From Octopus vulgaris (lineage: Eukaryota), in the NCBI GenBank assembly GCA_951406725.2, contig OX597822.1, positions 117,676,001 through 117,740,000 on the forward strand: a DNA stretch of 64,000 nucleotides. The letters run 5' to 3'. Under the pieces are notes generated by a model. It was given only the letters and a program-made list of their open reading frames with translations. It made no database searches and was not told the DNA's origin. Made by a program: the position numbers and the translations under genes. This document shows, piece by piece, positions 5,607 through 52,114 of the stretch. The stretch's first letter is position 1. Every line of letters begins with the position of its first letter.

Positions 5607-6730
5607 TCAACAACATAAACAGTTAATTGACAAAGACTTAACAACACAATTCAATTTCTCGTGCACAAATCCACTGTCTTTTCAAACTACCATTTCTACG
5701 AAAAATACGTCTTCCCAGAGCAGAGCTGTATCCATATCAACCAAGGTCCATCTTACATACTCATCTCTCTATTTCATGTCACAAGATATTGTTCTTCTCT
5801 TACACATTTAGACTCCTCAGTAACAAAATAGGAAGTGGTAACCTCCAAAAGAACATTGATACGCAGCATAATTTAAGACAATTATTTACATGGAATTCCT
5901 CTTATTGGTTTAACTAGACGAAGGCCTAACTCACATTGATTTGACCCGTTCTTGACAGTGAGGGACAGTTGTGGTTCTCCGGGTAAGTATTGTTAGGAAA
6001 AGCCCGCAAAAGCTTGTAACATTCTGGAATAGTTCTGGAATAGTTCTGCCTTCACAGCTATATATAGGCACATTTATTTTCATACTGTTTCAACAGAAGT
6101 TCGGATCGCTGTGCGGTCATGAATACGATCAGCAATGAAAGATTAGCTGGGAACCAAAGTTCAAAGTATTGTTACAACAACGCTAATCAAGAAAGGGACA
6201 AACAGACCTTAAGGTATATCTTAATGGCAGCAACTGAGTTAGAGAAGTTCTCTATTCACAAAGCAGTACAATGGGAAACAGATTCTGATTTGATAATTTT
6301 AACAAAATGGAATAAGAATTCTGGAGTGACAAGCCAGAATATGAAAGCGAGAGGCGATTCAGGAATTAGATTCACTATAAGAACATATTACCAAAGGTAA
6401 CAGAATTTGCTACGTCAGTAAACGACATTAATAGGTTCCCTTGACAAGGAAATGCTTTGTTACAATTATCACTGTGTAAGCAGCAACAGCGTCTCTCTGC
6501 CCCAATAAAAGCAAAGAAGGCTTCAAAAGCAACTAAGAACCACACGTTTCGCAATAACAGTCACGCGGTGAGACTTTATGTCCGAATAATATATTTTGTC
6601 ACAGTATGAAGTTTATTGCTTCGTGAGAGAGCCATGCAGACTAAATTTAGATCGGTATTCACACTTCAAATTAAATTTATAATGTGTATACAAACGTAAA
6701 ACAGTGTTAGTAGTGAGATTCTAACGAAGG

Positions 6731-6882
6731 GCGCAGGAGAGGCTGTGTGGTAAGTAGCTTGCTTACCAACCACATGGTTCTGGGTTCAGTCCCAATGCGT
6801 GGCATCTTGGGCAAGTGTCTTTTACTATAGCCTCGGGCCAACCAAAGCCTTGTGAGTGGATTTGGTAGACGGAAGCCCGTCG

Positions 6883-6914
<32 letters not shown>

Positions 6915-7135
6915 AGTGTGTGTATGTTTATGTGCCTGTGTCCCCCTAGCATTGCTTGACAACCGATGCTGGTGTGTTTACGTCCCCGTAACATAGCGGT
7001 TCGACAAATGAGACCGATAAAACAAGTACTGTGCTTACAAAGAATAAGTCCCGGGGTCGATTTGCTCGACTAAAAGCGGTGCTCCAGCATGGCTGCAGTC
7101 AAATGACTGAAACAAGTAAAAGAGTAAAAGAGTAA
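6731..7135 (+). mobile_element. SINE family A
   Basis: Full-length copy with CORE-like CTTGGGCAAGT. Confidence 0.9.
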
Positions 7136-8052
7136 AGGAAATCACTTGAGGAACCTTGCGTGTTAAAAGACTGTGGTCATGGTTCTTCGTGATTAACCGG
7201 TTCTTCCTTGGAAAGAGCAGCTCCGTCACTTAAGGTACTACGTAATCTTTCTTTAGCCTTAGTTTGAAAAATTCTCAGGTATCCCAAGCAGCATCTGCAT
7301 GCAATACAAATGGACTAACAAGAACTAGGGAACCATTAATTCAAGATGAACTTACGATACATTCGTTCCCCATTATGAGTATATTTATACACATAATCGA
7401 ATACATACACATACGCACTCACACATACACACACTCACATACATATACATATATACATATAAATACATGTATATATGTGTGTGTATGCGTATGTGTACGC
7501 GCTTGCGCGTGTTAATTCACTCGTACATTCGCACACGCAGACAAGCAAATAAACAGACCAACAAATAGAGAGACAATTGTTGTACGATAAATGCTGTGCG
7601 TTTTAATTCCATTCTTAAGTCGTTAATAATTGTTCGCTTGTATACTCATATGTCGGACATAGTTTTGAATTTAATGTATCTGATACGTCTGGGAATAGTC
7701 AGAAATGCGTAAGTACATCTCGAAATAATGTTTCCTAATGCTAGCCATTATCATTTGCATTATCAGAAAATAGAAGACAAGTGGGGGACTTGTTACTAAA
7801 GGGAGAAATTTATTGTAGACGGTGCTCTTAGATAATTGCAGAAAGAAAAGATGGCCGGCTGAGAATTCCATCTCATATACAGTTAAGATAAATTATATGT
7901 TGTCTGTTGCACAGTTAAGTAAGAGTCATTGTTTGAATGTCTATCAAGTGTAAGAGTTGAAGACGTGTGTGTCCTGAAGTACGCGCCTCAAACACTTGAT
8001 TGAAGAATGACGCACTCATGCAGATGCAAAAATGTACACACACACTCACATG

Positions 8053-8088
<36 letters not shown>

Positions 8089-8303
8089 CACGTAAACTAG
8101 GTAAAAAAAACGAATAAAGCATATTAGGCTTACGCTTAGGAGATAGGAAAAATAGAAGAAAAAGTCTCATACATTCTTCTTAAAGAATAGGCAATGAGAG
8201 AAAAATGAGGAACACGTCTCTCTCTCTCTCTGTATATATAGTAAGAAAAAGGGAGGAACTTTGATTATCCTCACGTGGATGGATAGATGTAATGCAATAT
8301 ATG

Positions 8304-8346
<43 letters not shown>

Positions 8347-8399
8347 AAAGAAAAGGCACTCACTTTACATAGTTTGAATATAATTTTTAATATATTTTA

Positions 8400-9600
8400 T
8401 GTTGTTGTCGACCGATTTCGCTTTCGCTAATCATGACATTGAAATTATTATAATATCGTGTTCTCTTAAGAATATTTTAGTCCATGTTGTGTGTAAAGTT
8501 TGAGAATGAATGATTCAACAACTAGAAGAACGTAAGGGGAGGTAATTTCTCATCCTTCTGGGAGGGGATGAATAAATATACACAAAAGCTCAAAAGCTAA
8601 AGTAGTGAGATGAAATATGTACAGTGATGGGTATGATATCGTGAATTAAAATATATACTGAGATCAAAGTTGGTTATGGGTTCATATTTAGACGTGTTCT
8701 GTATTTTTCGAAGAACAAATTTTCTTTATATAAACGTTCTTGTATAGATATAGATTCTTTGCACTGGTAGATGGGGAGCACTGTCAAGTTTGGTTGGATA
8801 TTACCTGCACATCTCTCTATGTGTTCATTCAAGAGAATCTGTCTGTATTGCGGGAACCAGATCTGTTCCGTGAGTAGTGTAGTTCTCCGTCTCAGTGTCA
8901 TACTTGTCTGACCTATATAATGTCCACAACGTGAACAAGTCATAACATAAATTAGATTCTCGGACACACAAGTGAACGTGGTTTTAATTGTGAACCTCTC
9001 TCCTTATTTGAATAGGAATTCCGTGCCTTCTAGTAGGTTGGGGCGTGTTCCATGTTTGAGCGTACACATTTTTAACCGTTCGTTTCGTGGTGGTTGGTGT
9101 GTAAAACTTCGCATTTGTTAGAAGTCTTTTTAGCGATGTGTGTTGCTTTTTGCATTTGATGAATTCATGCACTTTCAGAATGTTGTTCATTTTTGGGTCT
9201 CTATTTAGTAAAGGGAGTTTTTTTTTACAATAGTGTTGTATGCCTCATTGTTTCTAGGGTTGTGAGTTGATATATACAGTAGTGTTTTGAGATGAGTTGT
9301 GGTGTTACGTATTGTCGCCCTTAGTGCTTTAACGTCTAATTTCTAACCACACTTAATTCCATCGTCTGTAGGCGAAGGTGGATATTGTCTTTCAGTTAGT
9401 GTTGTCTTGAGGTTTGAACGATGAAGGGCCCGAGTATCTCTATCAGGCACTATTGTGTATTCTATCAGAGGCTATTATGCATTCTATCAGACACCTTTTA
9501 CTAAATTAAAGGGGGTATTTCTTTTGATGTGTTTTTGGCGACAAAAGCTAAACGGGAGTTATTGCTTCAAGTCTGTTGGTTTATGATAAATGTCAGTTAT
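8400..9600 (-). mobile_element. Penelope-like element remnant (RT C-terminus, GIY-YIG, pLTR)
   Basis: NLIYVMTCSRCGHYIGQT is a GIY-YIG motif with Cys pair. Upstream SLKRLL linker. A hammerhead-like motif lies downstream at 8406-8438. Confidence 0.85.
8406..8438 (-). ncRNA. Minimal hammerhead-like ribozyme, A3-U8 core
   Basis: UGUC AUGAUUA GC-GAAA-GC GAAA UCGG UC^ GACA. Confidence 0.65.
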
Positions 9601-9622: not shown

Positions 9623-9664
<42 letters not shown>

Positions 9665-9667
<3 letters not shown>

Positions 9668-10027
9668 CGCAGGAGTGGCTGTGTGGGTTCAGTCCCACTG
9701 CGCGGCATCTTGGGCAAGTGTCTTCTGCTATAGCCCTGGCCGACCAATGCCCTGTGAGTGGATTTGGTAGACGAAAACTGAAAGAAGCCTGTCGTATATA
9801 TGTATATGTGTGTGTGTGTGTTTGTGTGTCTGTGTTTGTCCCCCTAGCATTGCTTGACAACTGATGCTGGTGTGTTTACGTCCCCGTCACTTAGCGGTTC
9901 GGCAAAAGAGACCGATAGAATAAGTACTGGGCTTACAAAGAATAAGTCCTGGGGTCGATTTGCTCGACTAAAGGCGGTGCTCCAGCATGGCCGCAGTCAA
10001 ATGACTGAAACAAATAAAAGAGTAAAA

Positions 10028-10029
<2 letters not shown>
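9665..10029 (+). mobile_element. SINE family A (head deletion), within (TA)n
   Basis: Matches the other copies. Confidence 0.9.
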
Positions 10030-10091
<62 letters not shown>

Positions 10092-11199
10092 CAATATATG
10101 TATTACGTACATACATACGTATGTATATTTACATATATATATATCTTAAAAAGGTTAATTTGTTAAAGAAGGGGAGTTTAGATAAACGATATATGCTATT
10201 CCAATAGATTACGTAGAATACAATCTTTATCTAAACTTAACCACTTTTCTCTTCCTCGAGACTCCGGATTCACCTCATTGCGATCATTAGATGAACCGTT
10301 AATTTTGCTATTGTTCCAGCTTGTTTTATAGACAATGGAACATTAGTTCATTCCTTAGTGTATTGATATCATTTTCAGTGGATGGATTTTCGATGTTGTT
10401 CAAAGCGTTGCCACTAATTATCGTCGCCTTTCCTTTGCCAATTAGTGAATTATAGTTGCTTTTTAGTTCATGCGTAATTTCCTGTTATCGTTTTCAATTA
10501 TCCCAATCTTAAAGAATAGCTGCAAGCTAAGTTCAACATAACGACATATAAGCAAAAACTTAACGACGTAAGACCAAATTCTCAGAATAAAATCCGTTTG
10601 ACGTAGGATAAACGACAGTTAACGTCAACGCTGAGAACCCAGTTTATCAGAAGTTTCTAAACGTAAGCTTATCCCCCAAGTACCTGTGTCATTTAGGAAT
10701 TGTTAGAGCTCTTTAGCTATATTTCTCTTGTTATATTGCTTACTTTGTTGCTAATGTTAGTTGTATATTTGCAGAATACTCTAAATATGAAATATATAGC
10801 AAAAAAGAAAAAAAAAAAACCCGCAAAAGTCTTTATAATATTATTGATATCAAATATAGAATCTCTGTTTCAAGATGGGACAATGGCCGTTCATGCCGTA
10901 AAGACAAGAATTGGTAGGCTGTAAACAACAAAAACATGCAGAAAATGGGGACAGAAAATAAGGATCGGGTGCATTAATGTGTCAATCAAAATATGTATCA
11001 TATTTAAGGCACACCTCCACACACAAACACAAATATGTATTAAATAGAACTTCAGTTAGGGATGATTTCCGTAACATTGTATATGTACATACATACGTAT
11101 GTATGTAAGTATGTATGTATGTACGTATGTATGTATGTATATATGTATATATGTATGTGTGTGTATGCATGTATGTATGTATGTATGTATGTATGTATG

Positions 11200-48634: not shown

Positions 48635-49334
48635 GGGAGGTGACGGCAGCAGGGAGGGCCAAAAGGATGAGGAAAGCATCCAGAGCCAAATGGAGAAGCC
48701 TGGAACACAGGGAAACGATGACACATGTCCAGCTTCCAACACCACAACTGAAGACCAAAGAGGTGCGATGGCCGCAAGAAAGGAAAGGCACCCTGGAATT
48801 GATGGGAAGCAGGAGGTAAAGGGTGACAGAATCAAGGCTAAAGGAAGCCCTGTCCAGAGAAAGCAGAGGGACCCCAGCAAAAACTGTAAGGGCAGGGAAA
48901 GAAGCACCTGCAAATTCTACCTGAGGGGGGACTGCTGGTACGGCGTTGAAGGTGCAAACTGTCGCTTTGCACATCGGAGGCCCTACCGAAACCGCACGGA
49001 CGCGAGACAGAAGTCCCTCCCTCAGGGAGAACAAAAACAAAAACAAAAAGAAAAAGTTAAAAGAAGGGAAAAAAGCGCACTGACCACTACTGAAAGACGG
49101 TATGCAGATGTGGTGCGCGGAAACCCAATAGGTGGCCAGCTTCACCCAGATGTGAGAAGGGCGGCAGCTGAACAGCAGTCTTTTTTGTGCATGGCACAAA
49201 AAATTGTTCAGCAGCTGACCTGGCTACAAGCACAAAGCTGGAACTACCACCACATAAGGCCACCTCCAACAGATGCAGGATGGCCACCACAGACACCAAC
49301 ACCAACACACACACCACAAAAATATTTCTACTGA
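48633..49334 (+). CDS. LINE ORF1 with CCCH-type zinc finger (possibly 5'-truncated)
   Basis: 233-aa basic ORF containing [22 protein letters not shown] (C-x7-C-x8-C-x3-H). It overlaps the start of ORF2. The ATG abuts the (TA)n tract. Confidence 0.75.
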
Positions 49335-50206
49335 ATGTAGGAGGGCTGCTGCGCGGAAACTGTAAAAAGAAAATTTCATTCCTGAGAGACCTTGTGACAT
49401 GCAATCAAGCTATATGCATGGCACTCACAGAAACGCATCTTGAACCCGATATAGGTGATGCAGAAATACACATGCCGCAATATGCAGTCATACGCACAGA
49501 TAGAAAAGGGAGGAGCCATGGTGGAGTTGCAATGTACATCCGAGATGACCTCACGCCCCAGGTCCTGCTGTCATATTCAAACTCAGTATGTGAAACTCAA
49601 ATTGTACACATAAGACAACTGAATATCGTCATATGCACTACATATCGCCCACCAGATGCCCCAAAACACTCAGGCATGTTTGAAGACTGCCTAACAAAAA
49701 TAGGAGAAGTCCTCACCAACCTTGAACAGCACAACAGTGTATTCTTCATGGGTGACTTTAACCTCCCCAATGTGGAATGGCCTGGGGGGCAGATGCTCCC
49801 AGGGATGACACACCATCAGCAGGCACAGGTGGAGTCCCTGCTCCATCTCACAAATGCCTCTTTCATGGAGCAAATAGTTCTGCAACCAACAAGGGCAGAT
49901 AATATACTGGATCTCTGCTTCACAAACAATATGGATATTATCCATAATGTTAATGTGATGCCGACAATGATCTCGGATCACAACATAATAGAGCTGTCTA
50001 TGTATGGAACAAAAACCCCAGCAGACACACAGCCTATACGAAGCACCCACCATCTCTCCAACTTAAACTTTCATAAAGCCAACTGGAAGTCGATTGAGAA
50101 AGAGATCCTCAAACAGGATTGGCCTGAATGTCTCTCCACACCGGACATAAACATGAAACACAAACACTTCATGTCCATAATACAAGCCATATGTGACAAA
50201 AATTGA
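49187..50206 (+). CDS. LINE ORF2 N-terminal apurinic-like endonuclease (APE)
   Basis: Motifs LLNVGGL, ALTETHL, RKGRSHGGVAMY, TYRPP, MGDFN, NILDLCF, SDHN. The likely real start is MATT near 49280. The frame ends at the junction near 50200. Confidence 0.92.
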   Translation: MHGTKNCSAADLATSTKLELPPHKATSNRCRMATTDTNTNTHTTKIFLLNVGGLLRGNCKKKISFLRDLVTCNQAICMALTETHLEPDIGDAEIHMPQYAVIRTDRKGRSHGGVAMYIRDDLTPQVLLSYSNSVCETQIVHIRQLNIVICTTYRPPDAPKHSGMFEDCLTKIGEVLTNLEQHNSVFFMGDFNLPNVEWPGGQMLPGMTHHQQAQVESLLHLTNASFMEQIVLQPTRADNILDLCFTNNMDIIHNVNVMPTMISDHNIIELSMYGTKTPADTQPIRSTHHLSNLNFHKANWKSIEKEILKQDWPECLSTPDINMKHKHFMSIIQAICDKN

Positions 50207-51755
50207 GTACATCAACATCGAAGAAGATGATATCACACTAGCCATTGATGAGATTGACACAAACTCAGCTGCTGGACCTGATGGATTCCCAGCGATCCTT
50301 CTCAAATCGTGCAAACGAGCCCTTGCAAAACCGCTACAGCTTCTTTTTCAGAGCTTTCTTGCAAGTGGTAAGCTCCCAGTCAAACTGAAAGAGGGAGTAA
50401 TATGCCCTATCCATAAGGGAGGTAGCAGAGCAGATGCTAAAAATTATAGGCCTATCTCTCTGACCTCACACATCAGCAAAGTCATGGAACGAATAGTCCG
50501 TAAGAAACTAATCATGTTCCTTGAAGAAAATGACTTACTGTCTGACACCCAGCATGGATTTCGACCAGGTAGAGGCTGCCTAACACAGCTCCTGCAACAC
50601 TATGACTGGGTGTTGAAACAGCTACTAAATGGCTCAAATGTGGATGTAATATATCTCGACTTTGCAAAAGCCTTTGATAAAGTCGACCATGGTATGATCT
50701 GTCACAAACTGCGTGGTCTCGGCATAGGCGGGAAACTTGGAGAGTGGCTGCACAACTTTCTAAAAGACAGAAAACAGGCAGTTGTGAGCAATGGAGCCAC
50801 CTCCAAGGAAACGCAAATAACAAGCGGTGTCCCACAGGGCACTGTCTTGGGGCCACTGATGTTCATAGTGACCCTTTCAGACATGCCTTCAGTTGCTACG
50901 ATGACCACCCTTGCTAGCTATGCAGATGACACAAAAGTCTCCCACGCAATACAAAACACTGAAAATATTGCGCATCTGCAACATGAGCTGGACACAATAT
51001 ACAGGTGGGCTGAGGACAACAACATGCAGTTTAATGCAGGTAAGTTCCAGGCCCTGCGCTACTGGCACACAAAGGTAAATGACGTGAAGACTGGATACAC
51101 TGGCCCAGGAAGAATTGCAATCCCTGAGTCAAAATCAGTGCGTGACATGAGCAATGATGCATCTTTCCAAATGCATATTGCTAATCTGGTGATAAAATGC
51201 AGACGGCTAGCTGGATGGATTCTCCGAACTTTCAGAACAAGAGAGAAGGAGACACTGATGGTCCTATGGAAAACATTCGTCCTCAGCCGCTTGGACTACT
51301 GCTCCCAACTTTGGTCACCACACAATATAAAACAAACAGCAGAACTCGAAGCAACTCAGAGAAGCTACACAAAGAAAATCGTCTCAATGCAAAATGTCAG
51401 CTACTGGGAAAGACTGAAGGTATTAAACCTCTTCTCCCTGGAGCGGAGGCGGGAGAGATATGCAGTGATATACATCTGGAAAATCCTGGAGGGTCTTGTC
51501 CCAAACTTTGGCATTCAAAGTTACTCCAACCGCAGAACGGGGCGCCGCTGCGTGGTGCCAAGGATTCCAACATCACCATTAAAATACAGGTCCAGATACT
51601 GCAACAGCTTGGGTTTCAGAGGACCACAGCTCTTTAACATCCTCCCTAAATGCCTGAGAGACTTACATCGTGTGGATGTGGATTTCTTTAAAACTAAACT
51701 GGATCTCTTCTTGTTGGGAGTCCCAGATGAACCTACCTCACGACAGGAGACATGA
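50193..51755 (+). CDS. LINE ORF2 reverse transcriptase domain and C-terminus
   Basis: AAGPDGF, NYRPISLTS, QHGFR, YLDFAKAFDKVDH, SGVPQGTVLGP, YADD, LDYCSQLWSP, SLERRRER. Confidence 0.95.
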   Translation: MTKIEYINIEEDDITLAIDEIDTNSAAGPDGFPAILLKSCKRALAKPLQLLFQSFLASGKLPVKLKEGVICPIHKGGSRADAKNYRPISLTSHISKVMERIVRKKLIMFLEENDLLSDTQHGFRPGRGCLTQLLQHYDWVLKQLLNGSNVDVIYLDFAKAFDKVDHGMICHKLRGLGIGGKLGEWLHNFLKDRKQAVVSNGATSKETQITSGVPQGTVLGPLMFIVTLSDMPSVATMTTLASYADDTKVSHAIQNTENIAHLQHELDTIYRWAEDNNMQFNAGKFQALRYWHTKVNDVKTGYTGPGRIAIPESKSVRDMSNDASFQMHIANLVIKCRRLAGWILRTFRTREKETLMVLWKTFVLSRLDYCSQLWSPHNIKQTAELEATQRSYTKKIVSMQNVSYWERLKVLNLFSLERRRERYAVIYIWKILEGLVPNFGIQSYSNRRTGRRCVVPRIPTSPLKYRSRYCNSLGFRGPQLFNILPKCLRDLHRVDVDFFKTKLDLFLLGVPDEPTSRQET

Positions 51756-51901
51756 ATGCGGGCAGCAGCATCGAACTCCCTTGTTGATCAAGTGCCACGT
51801 ATCAGAGGAGGATTCACAAACTAGTGTAGCTCATTCAGCGGTGGTGCCCCAGCATGGCCGCGGCCTTCGGGCTAAAACATTTTTATGGATTAAGGATTTA
51901 A

Positions 51902-52011
<110 letters not shown>

Positions 52012-52114
52012 GAAAAATACAAACTGGGACAAGAACGTAAAACATTTAGAAGACGATACAAAAAACACGGACGGGACTATCTCTAATTTAATTTATATAT
52101 ATATATATACATAT

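What the first reader, a model, noticed from the sequence alone, without database searches (positions are those of the whole stretch)
8406..8438. A3-U8 hammerhead at the expected pLTR position of a Penelope element
The minus strand reads UGUC-AUGAUUA-GC GAAA GC-GAAA-UCGG-UC^GACA. It has a perfect 4-bp stem I, a GNRA-capped stem II and a GUC cleavage triplet. It lies about 240 nt downstream of the GIY-YIG ORF on the same strand, so the context independently supports the call.
Basis: partly seen in the sequence, partly recalled or inferred. Interest (0 to 1): 0.75.

Follow-up and report, generated by a model that had tools for sequence, protein, structure and literature searches.

The report
Hammerhead ribozyme with flipped A-U core
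A very abundant jumping gene of what is likely an octopus carries a tiny hammerhead-shaped RNA motif whose central C-G pair is replaced by A-U, a natural variant we could not find in print; it likely still cuts itself, slowly and as a pair of molecules, but cutting is untested.

Summary
The minus strand at 8438-8406 parses as a minimal type I hammerhead with A3 and U8 in place of C3 and G8, 235 nt after a decayed GIY-YIG frame. A strict descriptor finds it once in the window and 0 times in 12.8 Mb of random sequence per model. It lies near the 3' end of a 5'-truncated, dead Neptune/Nematis-type Penelope-like element (9624 to about 8345). No core change is among the 40 best-supported differences (118 hidden), so A3-U8 is very likely the family's majority state. 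Three related elements hold the same architecture at the same place with C3-G8 (2) or U3-A8 (1). Natural A3-U8 was not found in print, but two key papers were not held. Cleavage is untested, and one published screen found no A-U rescue. Verdict: new variant of a known kind.

The parts
8406..8438 (-). Minimal type I hammerhead motif with A3-U8 core (A3 8434, U8 8429, C17 8410; predicted cut between 8410 and 8409)
   Evidence: Sequence, descriptor scan, chance test, family contigs
8435..8438 (-). Stem I, 5' strand (pairs with 8409-8406)
   Evidence: many family contigs diverge from 8405 on (43, 51, 41, 33 contigs in the four runs)
8420..8427 (-). Stem II, 2 bp with GAAA tetraloop, no extra base after A9
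8411..8416 (-). A15.1 to U16.1 segment; AUCGGU here, self-complementary ACCGGU in 97-98% of family depth; predicted dimerisation site
   Evidence: Row 8415; self-duplex -3.1 kcal/mol for the window form, -8.3 for the natural ACCGGU of L011
8674..9624 (-). Decayed 3' part of the element's ORF: RT thumb, degenerate Cys linker, GIY-YIG endonuclease; several stops and frameshifts
   Evidence: tblastn of RT+GIY-YIG proteins aligns 9624-8677 in order, E down to 8e-28 for P0008; frames
8439..8673 (-). 3' untranslated spacer, variable in length and sequence among family copies
   Evidence: Depth trough at 8547-8561, many joints and loose ends
8345..8396 (-). Second conserved block at the element's 3' end, with a splice-donor-like GUGAGU at 8363-8358 (donor role inferred from recalled consensus)
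   Evidence: Depth peak at 8367-8396; sequence
8305..8344 (.). (TA)n microsatellite at the 3' junction; another lies at about 9630-9663 at the 5' junction; likely the split target site
   Evidence: (TA)n bias discussed for Neptune and Naiad in PMC8557442 (passages)

Best explanation
The motif is the family-wide minimal hammerhead of a high-copy Neptune/Nematis-type Penelope-like retroelement, in which A3 and U8 likely form the core Watson-Crick pair that is C3-G8 elsewhere, so that the RNA would still cut after GUC, probably slowly, as a dimer and with help from the element's protein. Shown: the sequence and its parse, its place in the element, the high-copy family in four organisms, the palindromic CCGG majority, three different complementary 3-8 pairs at the same place in related elements. 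Inferred: two motifs (tandem copies on one transcript, or two RNAs) pair through ACCGGU to build helix III between molecules; each core then acts on its partner's C17; the 3-8 pair positions the ribose of residue 8, so base identity can change while pairing holds; cleavage trims the element's RNA out of read-through or tandem transcripts. The window's copy is dead, and its U at 8415 favours a misfold in which the core pairs with the GAAA/loop III strand.
For: Chance test. Element context; 1747, 1842, 982 and 1147 contigs laid from four organisms; summed depth at 8427-8441 is 23095, 83579, 4263, 15557 against 486, 1109, 71, 293 in the spacer trough; loop III reads CCGG in 97.6, 98.0, 98.1, 97.1% of depth; 0 of the 40 shown difference rows fall on 8406-8414 or 8416-8449; two loose-end consensus lines read through the core and keep U8 (17 contigs, agreement 0.88; 8 contigs, 0.68), the second also A3, while position 7, the free position, differs (A, C against U); of 7 related loci with a C-terminal endonuclease and enough downstream DNA, 3 hold a clean motif 58-256 nt after the endonuclease match, with C3-G8 (L009, L011) or U3-A8 (L015), no base after A9, and palindromic loops GAUC, CCGG, UCGA. 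Natural U3-A8 and in vitro tolerance of 3-8 covariation are in PMC3088659 and PMC4209133; a PLE hammerhead is partly rescued by a 3-8 swap and needs the element's protein in PMC11167929.
Against: No cleavage or RNA evidence was obtained. In a pairwise screen of a type III hammerhead only the G3-C8 swap rescued; all other double mutants there were low (PMC9901934). 118 difference rows were hidden, so minor C3 or G8 forms are not excluded, and A3 and U8 were not counted copy by copy. Depth peaks partly reflect where this decayed copy resembles the family. Stem II has only 2 bp; the stems I+II-only fold has probability 1e-4 in this copy (8e-4 to 2e-2 in the three relatives), and co-folding two window copies did not give the dimer fold. 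U8 can pair with A13/A14 and compete with A3 (seen by inspection and). 4 of the 7 evaluable relatives gave no clean motif. In PMC11167929 cleavage was dispensable for insertion in vitro.
Confidence: 0.68

Rival explanations
1. The motif descends from a hammerhead and is family-wide, but no longer cuts: the fold is kept as a binding or folding signal for the element's protein near the RNA end, and A3-U8 is a tolerated or even off-switch state.
For: A-U rescue not seen in a pairwise screen; hammerhead cleavage dispensable for insertion in vitro and no RNA ends at the site in the lizard element; Naiads spread without canonical hammerheads; 2-bp stem II and competing U8-A pairing.
Against: A second, exactly compensating change at position 8 and retention of U4, G5, A6, A9, GAAA, NUH and the palindrome fit selection for the active conformation, in which alone 3 and 8 pair (PMC3884650 passages); position 7 is the one that varies.
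Confidence: 0.17
2. A3 was fixed because A3-U4-G5 spells AUG, a start codon for the element's ORF or a short upstream ORF in tandem copies; U8 is the later rescue that restored the ribozyme. This can hold together with cleavage.
For: The sequence shows AUG at 8434-8432. In the lizard element the ORF starts inside the hammerhead. It would explain a double change with no wobble path from C-G.
Against: The frame from this AUG stops after 15 codons in the window copy (read); the spacer behind the motif is AT-rich, variable and carries insertions, and the second base of codon 2 varies.
Confidence: 0.08
3. A3-U8 is peculiar to this decayed copy or a small subfamily, or the whole match is chance.
For: The copy is dead and differs from the family majority at about 26 of the 40 shown rows; 118 rows are hidden; no Rfam match; folding z -1.3.
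Against: A majority C3-G8 form would give two rows at depths near that of row 8415, which is shown; neither appears. Loose-end consensus lines keep U8 and A3. Chance rate at this place about 4e-4 even when relaxed.
Confidence: 0.07

Closest known systems
Minimal hammerheads in the pLTRs of metazoan Penelope-like elements (Cervera and De la Pena 2014, PMC4209133)
   Same: [quoted passage not shown] The subtype without a base after A9 and with a 4-nt palindrome resembles the Marsupenaeus row of their Fig. S3.
   Different: Core pair is A3-U8: 0 of the 56 representatives in Fig. S3 have it (53 C3-G8, 2 U3-A8, 1 U3-G8). Stem II is 2 bp, against 3-8 bp in those rows.
Natural U3-A8 hammerheads (Perreault et al. 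2011, PMC3088659; Schistosoma Cercyon elements, PMC4209133; locus L015 here)
   Same: Compensatory replacement of the C3-G8 pair by an A-U type pair.
   Different: Orientation is inverted: purine at 3, pyrimidine at 8. U3-A8 is reachable from C3-G8 by two transitions through a U-G wobble; A3-U8 needs two transversions through a mismatch (inference).
Protein-assisted hammerhead of the Anolis Poseidon element PAc (PMC11167929)
   Same: Minimal PLE hammerhead that depends on the 3-8 pair; a swap partly rescues.
   Different: PAc is C3-G8 and of the Poseidon clade; the swap tested was the engineered G3-C8.
Neptune and Nematis clades of endonuclease-bearing Penelope-like elements (as defined in PMC8557442)
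   Same: RT thumb followed by C-terminal GIY-YIG, close relatives with the CX2-5CxxC linker, (TA)n junctions.
   Different: Only a decayed 3' third is present; the linker is degenerate in this copy; Neptune against Nematis was not resolved.

Membership tests
Hammerhead ribozyme | Core U4 G5 A6 N7, A9, G12 A13 A14, A15.1-U16.1 and an NUH triplet in order | tested here: met
Hammerhead ribozyme | Literal CUGANGA consensus (C3, G8) | tested here: not met
   A3 and U8; no Rfam hammerhead match, though Rfam also misses the canonical-core relatives L009 and L011
Hammerhead ribozyme | Watson-Crick complementarity of positions 3 and 8 | tested here: met
   A-U here; C-G, C-G, U-A in three relatives. 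Complementarity shown, pairing inferred
Hammerhead ribozyme | Stems I and II flanking the core | tested here: met
   4 bp and 2 bp; 2-bp stems II are described in PMC3088659
Hammerhead ribozyme | Self-cleavage after N17 | not testable with these tools
   Needs a bench assay; no RNA holder listed
PLE minimal (dimeric) hammerhead | Palindromic helix/loop III | tested here: met
   CCGG in 97-98% of depth in four runs; the window copy itself has one change
PLE minimal (dimeric) hammerhead | Lies in the terminal region downstream of a PLE endonuclease, sense strand | tested here: met
PLE minimal (dimeric) hammerhead | Present in both pLTRs of a full or tandem copy | tested here: inconclusive
   No second copy in the window; no genome held; no contig spans the stretch
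PLE minimal (dimeric) hammerhead | Conserved as a family, A3 and U8 in most copies | tested here: met
   indirectly: no row at 8434 or 8429 among 40 shown, 118 hidden; two consensus loose ends agree
Neptune/Nematis PLE | C-terminal GIY-YIG after a PLE-type RT | tested here: met
   only the thumb region of the RT is present
Neptune/Nematis PLE | CX2-5CxxC linker before the endonuclease | tested here: inconclusive
   Degenerate in the window; present in nearest relatives such as P0001 and P0003
Neptune/Nematis PLE | Placement in an RT tree with reference elements | not tested
   No reference set on hand; the RT core is missing from this copy

The most novel reading that the evidence does not exclude
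This is the first natural, family-wide purine-3/pyrimidine-8 hammerhead: an active A3-U8 ribozyme with a 2-bp stem II, carried at the order of a thousand copies per genome in several octopod species, missed by all CUGANGA and UUGANAA searches. U8 would switch between pairing with the GAAA strand (off) and with A3 (on) under control of dimerisation or the element's protein, and together with the U6-core family in the same window it would point to an unexplored set of non-canonical hammerheads in cephalopod genomes.
Probability: 0.4. Interest if true: 0.68.

Novelty: new variant of a known kind. Interest (0 to 1): 0.52.

Why it matters
Nature had been seen to use C3-G8 and U3-A8; the inverted pair is known to us only from engineering. 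A family-wide A3-U8 is evolutionary evidence that pairing, not base identity or orientation, is what positions 3 and 8 require, even in a 33-nt ribozyme. It shows that core-literal searches undercount hammerheads, which bears on claims that some Penelope-like clades lack them (those searches used CUGANGA or relaxed descriptors, PMC8557442). It also gives a natural test of the open question whether cleavage matters to these elements: a lineage that rebuilt the catalytic pair by two transversions argues for selection on the active fold. The kind of system and its setting are known, so the gain is for specialists.

Tried and rejected
No whole genome is held, so copies could not be counted in an assembly. 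No second copy in the window. Rfam: nothing at gathering level in the window, only chance matches at 8300-8700, and no hammerhead match in 5 related loci, so Rfam silence is uninformative. Pattern scans for the family motif: 0 in viral contigs, 0 in metagenome contigs, 8 in prokaryote genomes, which by inspection lack a matching stem I and are about the chance number; rejected. Word-based protein searches with the endonuclease found nothing; the exhaustive search did. Related-locus scans of genome and viral contigs confirmed nothing. No RNA holder listed: no evidence either way. MAFFT misaligned the four motifs, so no pair counts or covariance model were made. Two further descriptor hits (L010 inside the ORF, L014 on the other strand) were set aside as chance. 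The endonuclease tree (23 rows) groups the window with P0003-P0005 (98/89) but leaves the motif-bearing relatives unresolved, so the order of core changes cannot be given. Earlier-findings look-ups by sequence, words and place gave nothing on A3-U8.

Full report
Observation. The minus strand at 8438-8406 reads UGUC AUGAUUA GC GAAA GC GAAA UCGG UC GACA. It parses as a type I minimal hammerhead: 4-bp stem I, A3-U4-G5-A6-U7-U8-A9, a 2-bp stem II with GAAA loop, GAAA, a 4-nt loop III and GUC. A descriptor that allows any Watson-Crick 3-8 pair and demands stem I of 4 bp, stem II of 2 bp and G10.1-C11.1 matched once in the window and 0 times in 12.8 Mb of random sequence for each of two Markov orders; allowing G-U and dropping the G-C demand gave 10 and 12 hits, about 4e-4 per 500 nt of one strand. 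The descriptor was written with the motif in view, so these rates are a guide. Folding energy is ordinary (z -1.30) and Rfam finds nothing, but Rfam also misses the canonical relatives found later.

Context. A stop-to-stop frame at 9003-8674 matches GIY-YIG (E 6e-4, below cut-off). An exhaustive search found 475 relatives; full-length ones carry RT and GIY-YIG (2 long proteins scanned: P0008 both domains, P0066 GIY-YIG only) and align in order to 9624-8677 through several stops. Near relatives have the Cys linker that PMC8557442 gives for Neptune and Nematis; in the window it is degenerate. (TA)n runs flank both ends. So this is a 5'-truncated, dead copy, 9624 to about 8345, with the motif 235 nt after the stop. 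The host is likely an octopod: the best named hits of a LINE in the window are from Argonauta hians (61-62%); the SINEs also look like those of Octopus (recalled, untested).

Family test. No genome is held. Of 24 listed runs I laid 4, from four different organisms, on 8352-8800: 1747, 1842, 982 and 1147 contigs. Summed depth peaks on the motif (23095, 83579, 4263, 15557 at 8427-8441) and falls to 486, 1109, 71, 293 in the spacer; single contigs have depths of about 14-19, 35-66, 4-12 and 14-24, which suggests the order of a thousand copies, though the tool warns that this is no copy number. The only shown difference inside the motif is at 8415, where 97.6, 98.0, 98.1 and 97.1% of depth turns loop III into CCGG, making ACCGGU self-complementary. 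40 rows were shown and 118 hidden; the shown rows go down to about 24% share, so I infer that no change at A3 or U8 is a majority, but minor forms are open. Two loose-end consensus lines read into the core: one keeps G5-A6-A7-U8-A9 (17 contigs, 0.88), one reads A3-U4-G5-A6-C7-U8-A9 (8 contigs, 0.68, with a 10.1 mismatch and an unclear stem I). Position 7 varies while U8 stays, as expected of a hammerhead. 43, 51, 41 and 33 contigs leave the window sequence at 8405, just past stem I, and the upstream spacer varies in length, so the motif is a conserved island between variable flanks. Caveat: depth also reflects where this decayed copy happens to resemble the family.

Relatives. A metagenome scan gave 14 loci. 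Three have an N-terminal endonuclease with RT downstream (L017-L019), two more continue as ORF after the endonuclease (L021, L022, by eye), and two have too little downstream DNA (L010, L014). Of the other 7, three hold a clean motif 256, 97 and 58 nt after the endonuclease match: L009 (C3-G8, loop GAUC), L011 (C3-G8, loop CCGG, 3-bp stem II) and L015 (U3-A8, loop UCGA). L016 and L020 show partial relics by eye; L012 and L013 show none. All three clean motifs share the window family's build: no base after A9 and a 4-nt palindrome. Three different complementary pairs at 3-8 in the same place of related elements is the best evidence that A3-U8 is a compensated core. The sample is small and the tree does not order the changes.

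Mechanism. Best reading: helix III forms between two motifs through ACCGGU (self-duplex -8.3 kcal/mol in L011, -3.1 for the window's form); each core cuts its partner after C17; A3-U8 holds residue 8 as C3-G8 does. Dimer action and low rates are described in PMC4209133; protein help and partial rescue by a 3-8 swap in PMC11167929. Against: only G3-C8 rescued in a type III screen (PMC9901934); the 2-bp stem II is weak; U8 can pair with the GAAA strand; co-folding two window copies gave no hammerhead dimer; cleavage was dispensable for insertion in vitro. The window copy's own U at 8415 pairs with A6 in the predicted misfold, so this copy is probably inactive. Rivals are a non-cutting signal (0.17), selection for the AUG spelled by A3-U4-G5 (0.08), and a private or chance state (0.07).

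Comparison and novelty. It works like, and by all tested features but the literal consensus belongs with, the minimal hammerheads of Penelope-like elements; cleavage is the untested defining feature. In Fig. S3 of PMC4209133, 0 of 56 representatives are A3-U8. PMC3088659 reports natural U3-A8. Five searches naming the pair or its mutations returned no paper with a natural A3-U8, and three wider ones listed none by title or abstract; one search gave nothing relevant. The library lacks most subscription papers. Lunse et al. 2017, on variants of these very ribozymes, and Przybilski and Hammann 2007 were not held; from recall, the latter found that any Watson-Crick 3-8 pair keeps some activity in engineered type III ribozymes, with a preference for pyrimidine-3/purine-8 in one. 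A prior record in Lunse et al. or in repeat databases is therefore possible.

What was read. PMC4209133: parts 1-2 of 4 of the text, parts 1-2 of 3 of supplement 2 (file 1 not searchable). PMC3088659: section 8 and passages. 10.64898/2026.07.22.740005: part 1 of 5 (supplements closed). Passages only: PMC8557442 (and a search of its supplement), PMC6765202, PMC6155905, PMC11014351, PMC9901934, PMC3884650, PMC11167929, PMC8495972, PMC10085705, PMC8490949. Figures were not seen.

Verdict. Real, family-wide by strong indirect evidence, and apparently unreported: a new variant of a known kind, interest 0.52.

Noticed in passing
window 11876-11836 and 52253-52214, minus strand (C3 at 11871 and 52248): Two copies (84.5% over 213 nt) of a short repeat next to (TA)n, each with a minimal hammerhead fold (5-bp stem I, CG palindrome) whose core reads CUGUUGA, i.e. 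U at position 6 in both. A6 is normally conserved; a natural A6C had low activity. May be a second non-canonical, family-wide core. No earlier finding matched.
   Followed up: partly
window 14680-13436 and about 13005-12965, minus strand: A second decayed Penelope-like element (thumb and endonuclease matches) followed by a GAA microsatellite and a broken canonical C3-G8 minimal hammerhead (C3 near 13002; GAAA and stem II damaged, by eye).
   Followed up: partly
window 10960-10190, minus strand: Decayed coding-like stretch after a splice-acceptor-like site near 10920 that resembles the N-terminal part of a Penelope-like ORF (recalled look); no match among 151 fetched proteins. Whether it is the 5' part of the same element is unresolved.
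   Followed up: partly
window 8363-8358, minus strand: Splice-donor-like GUGAGU within the second conserved block at the element's 3' end; PLE pLTRs are reported to hold intron starts.
   Followed up: no
window 49172-52086, plus strand: LINE with APE endonuclease and RT in long open frames; best named relatives in Argonauta hians.
   Followed up: partly
L015 2266-2305, plus strand: U3-A8 minimal hammerhead with UCGA palindrome behind a near full-length Neptune-like ORF, outside the schistosome Cercyon elements where U3-A8 was described.
   Followed up: partly
window 9664-10040 and about 6700-7200: Two copies of a SINE-like repeat, judged from similar translations; recalled as octopus-type.
   Followed up: no
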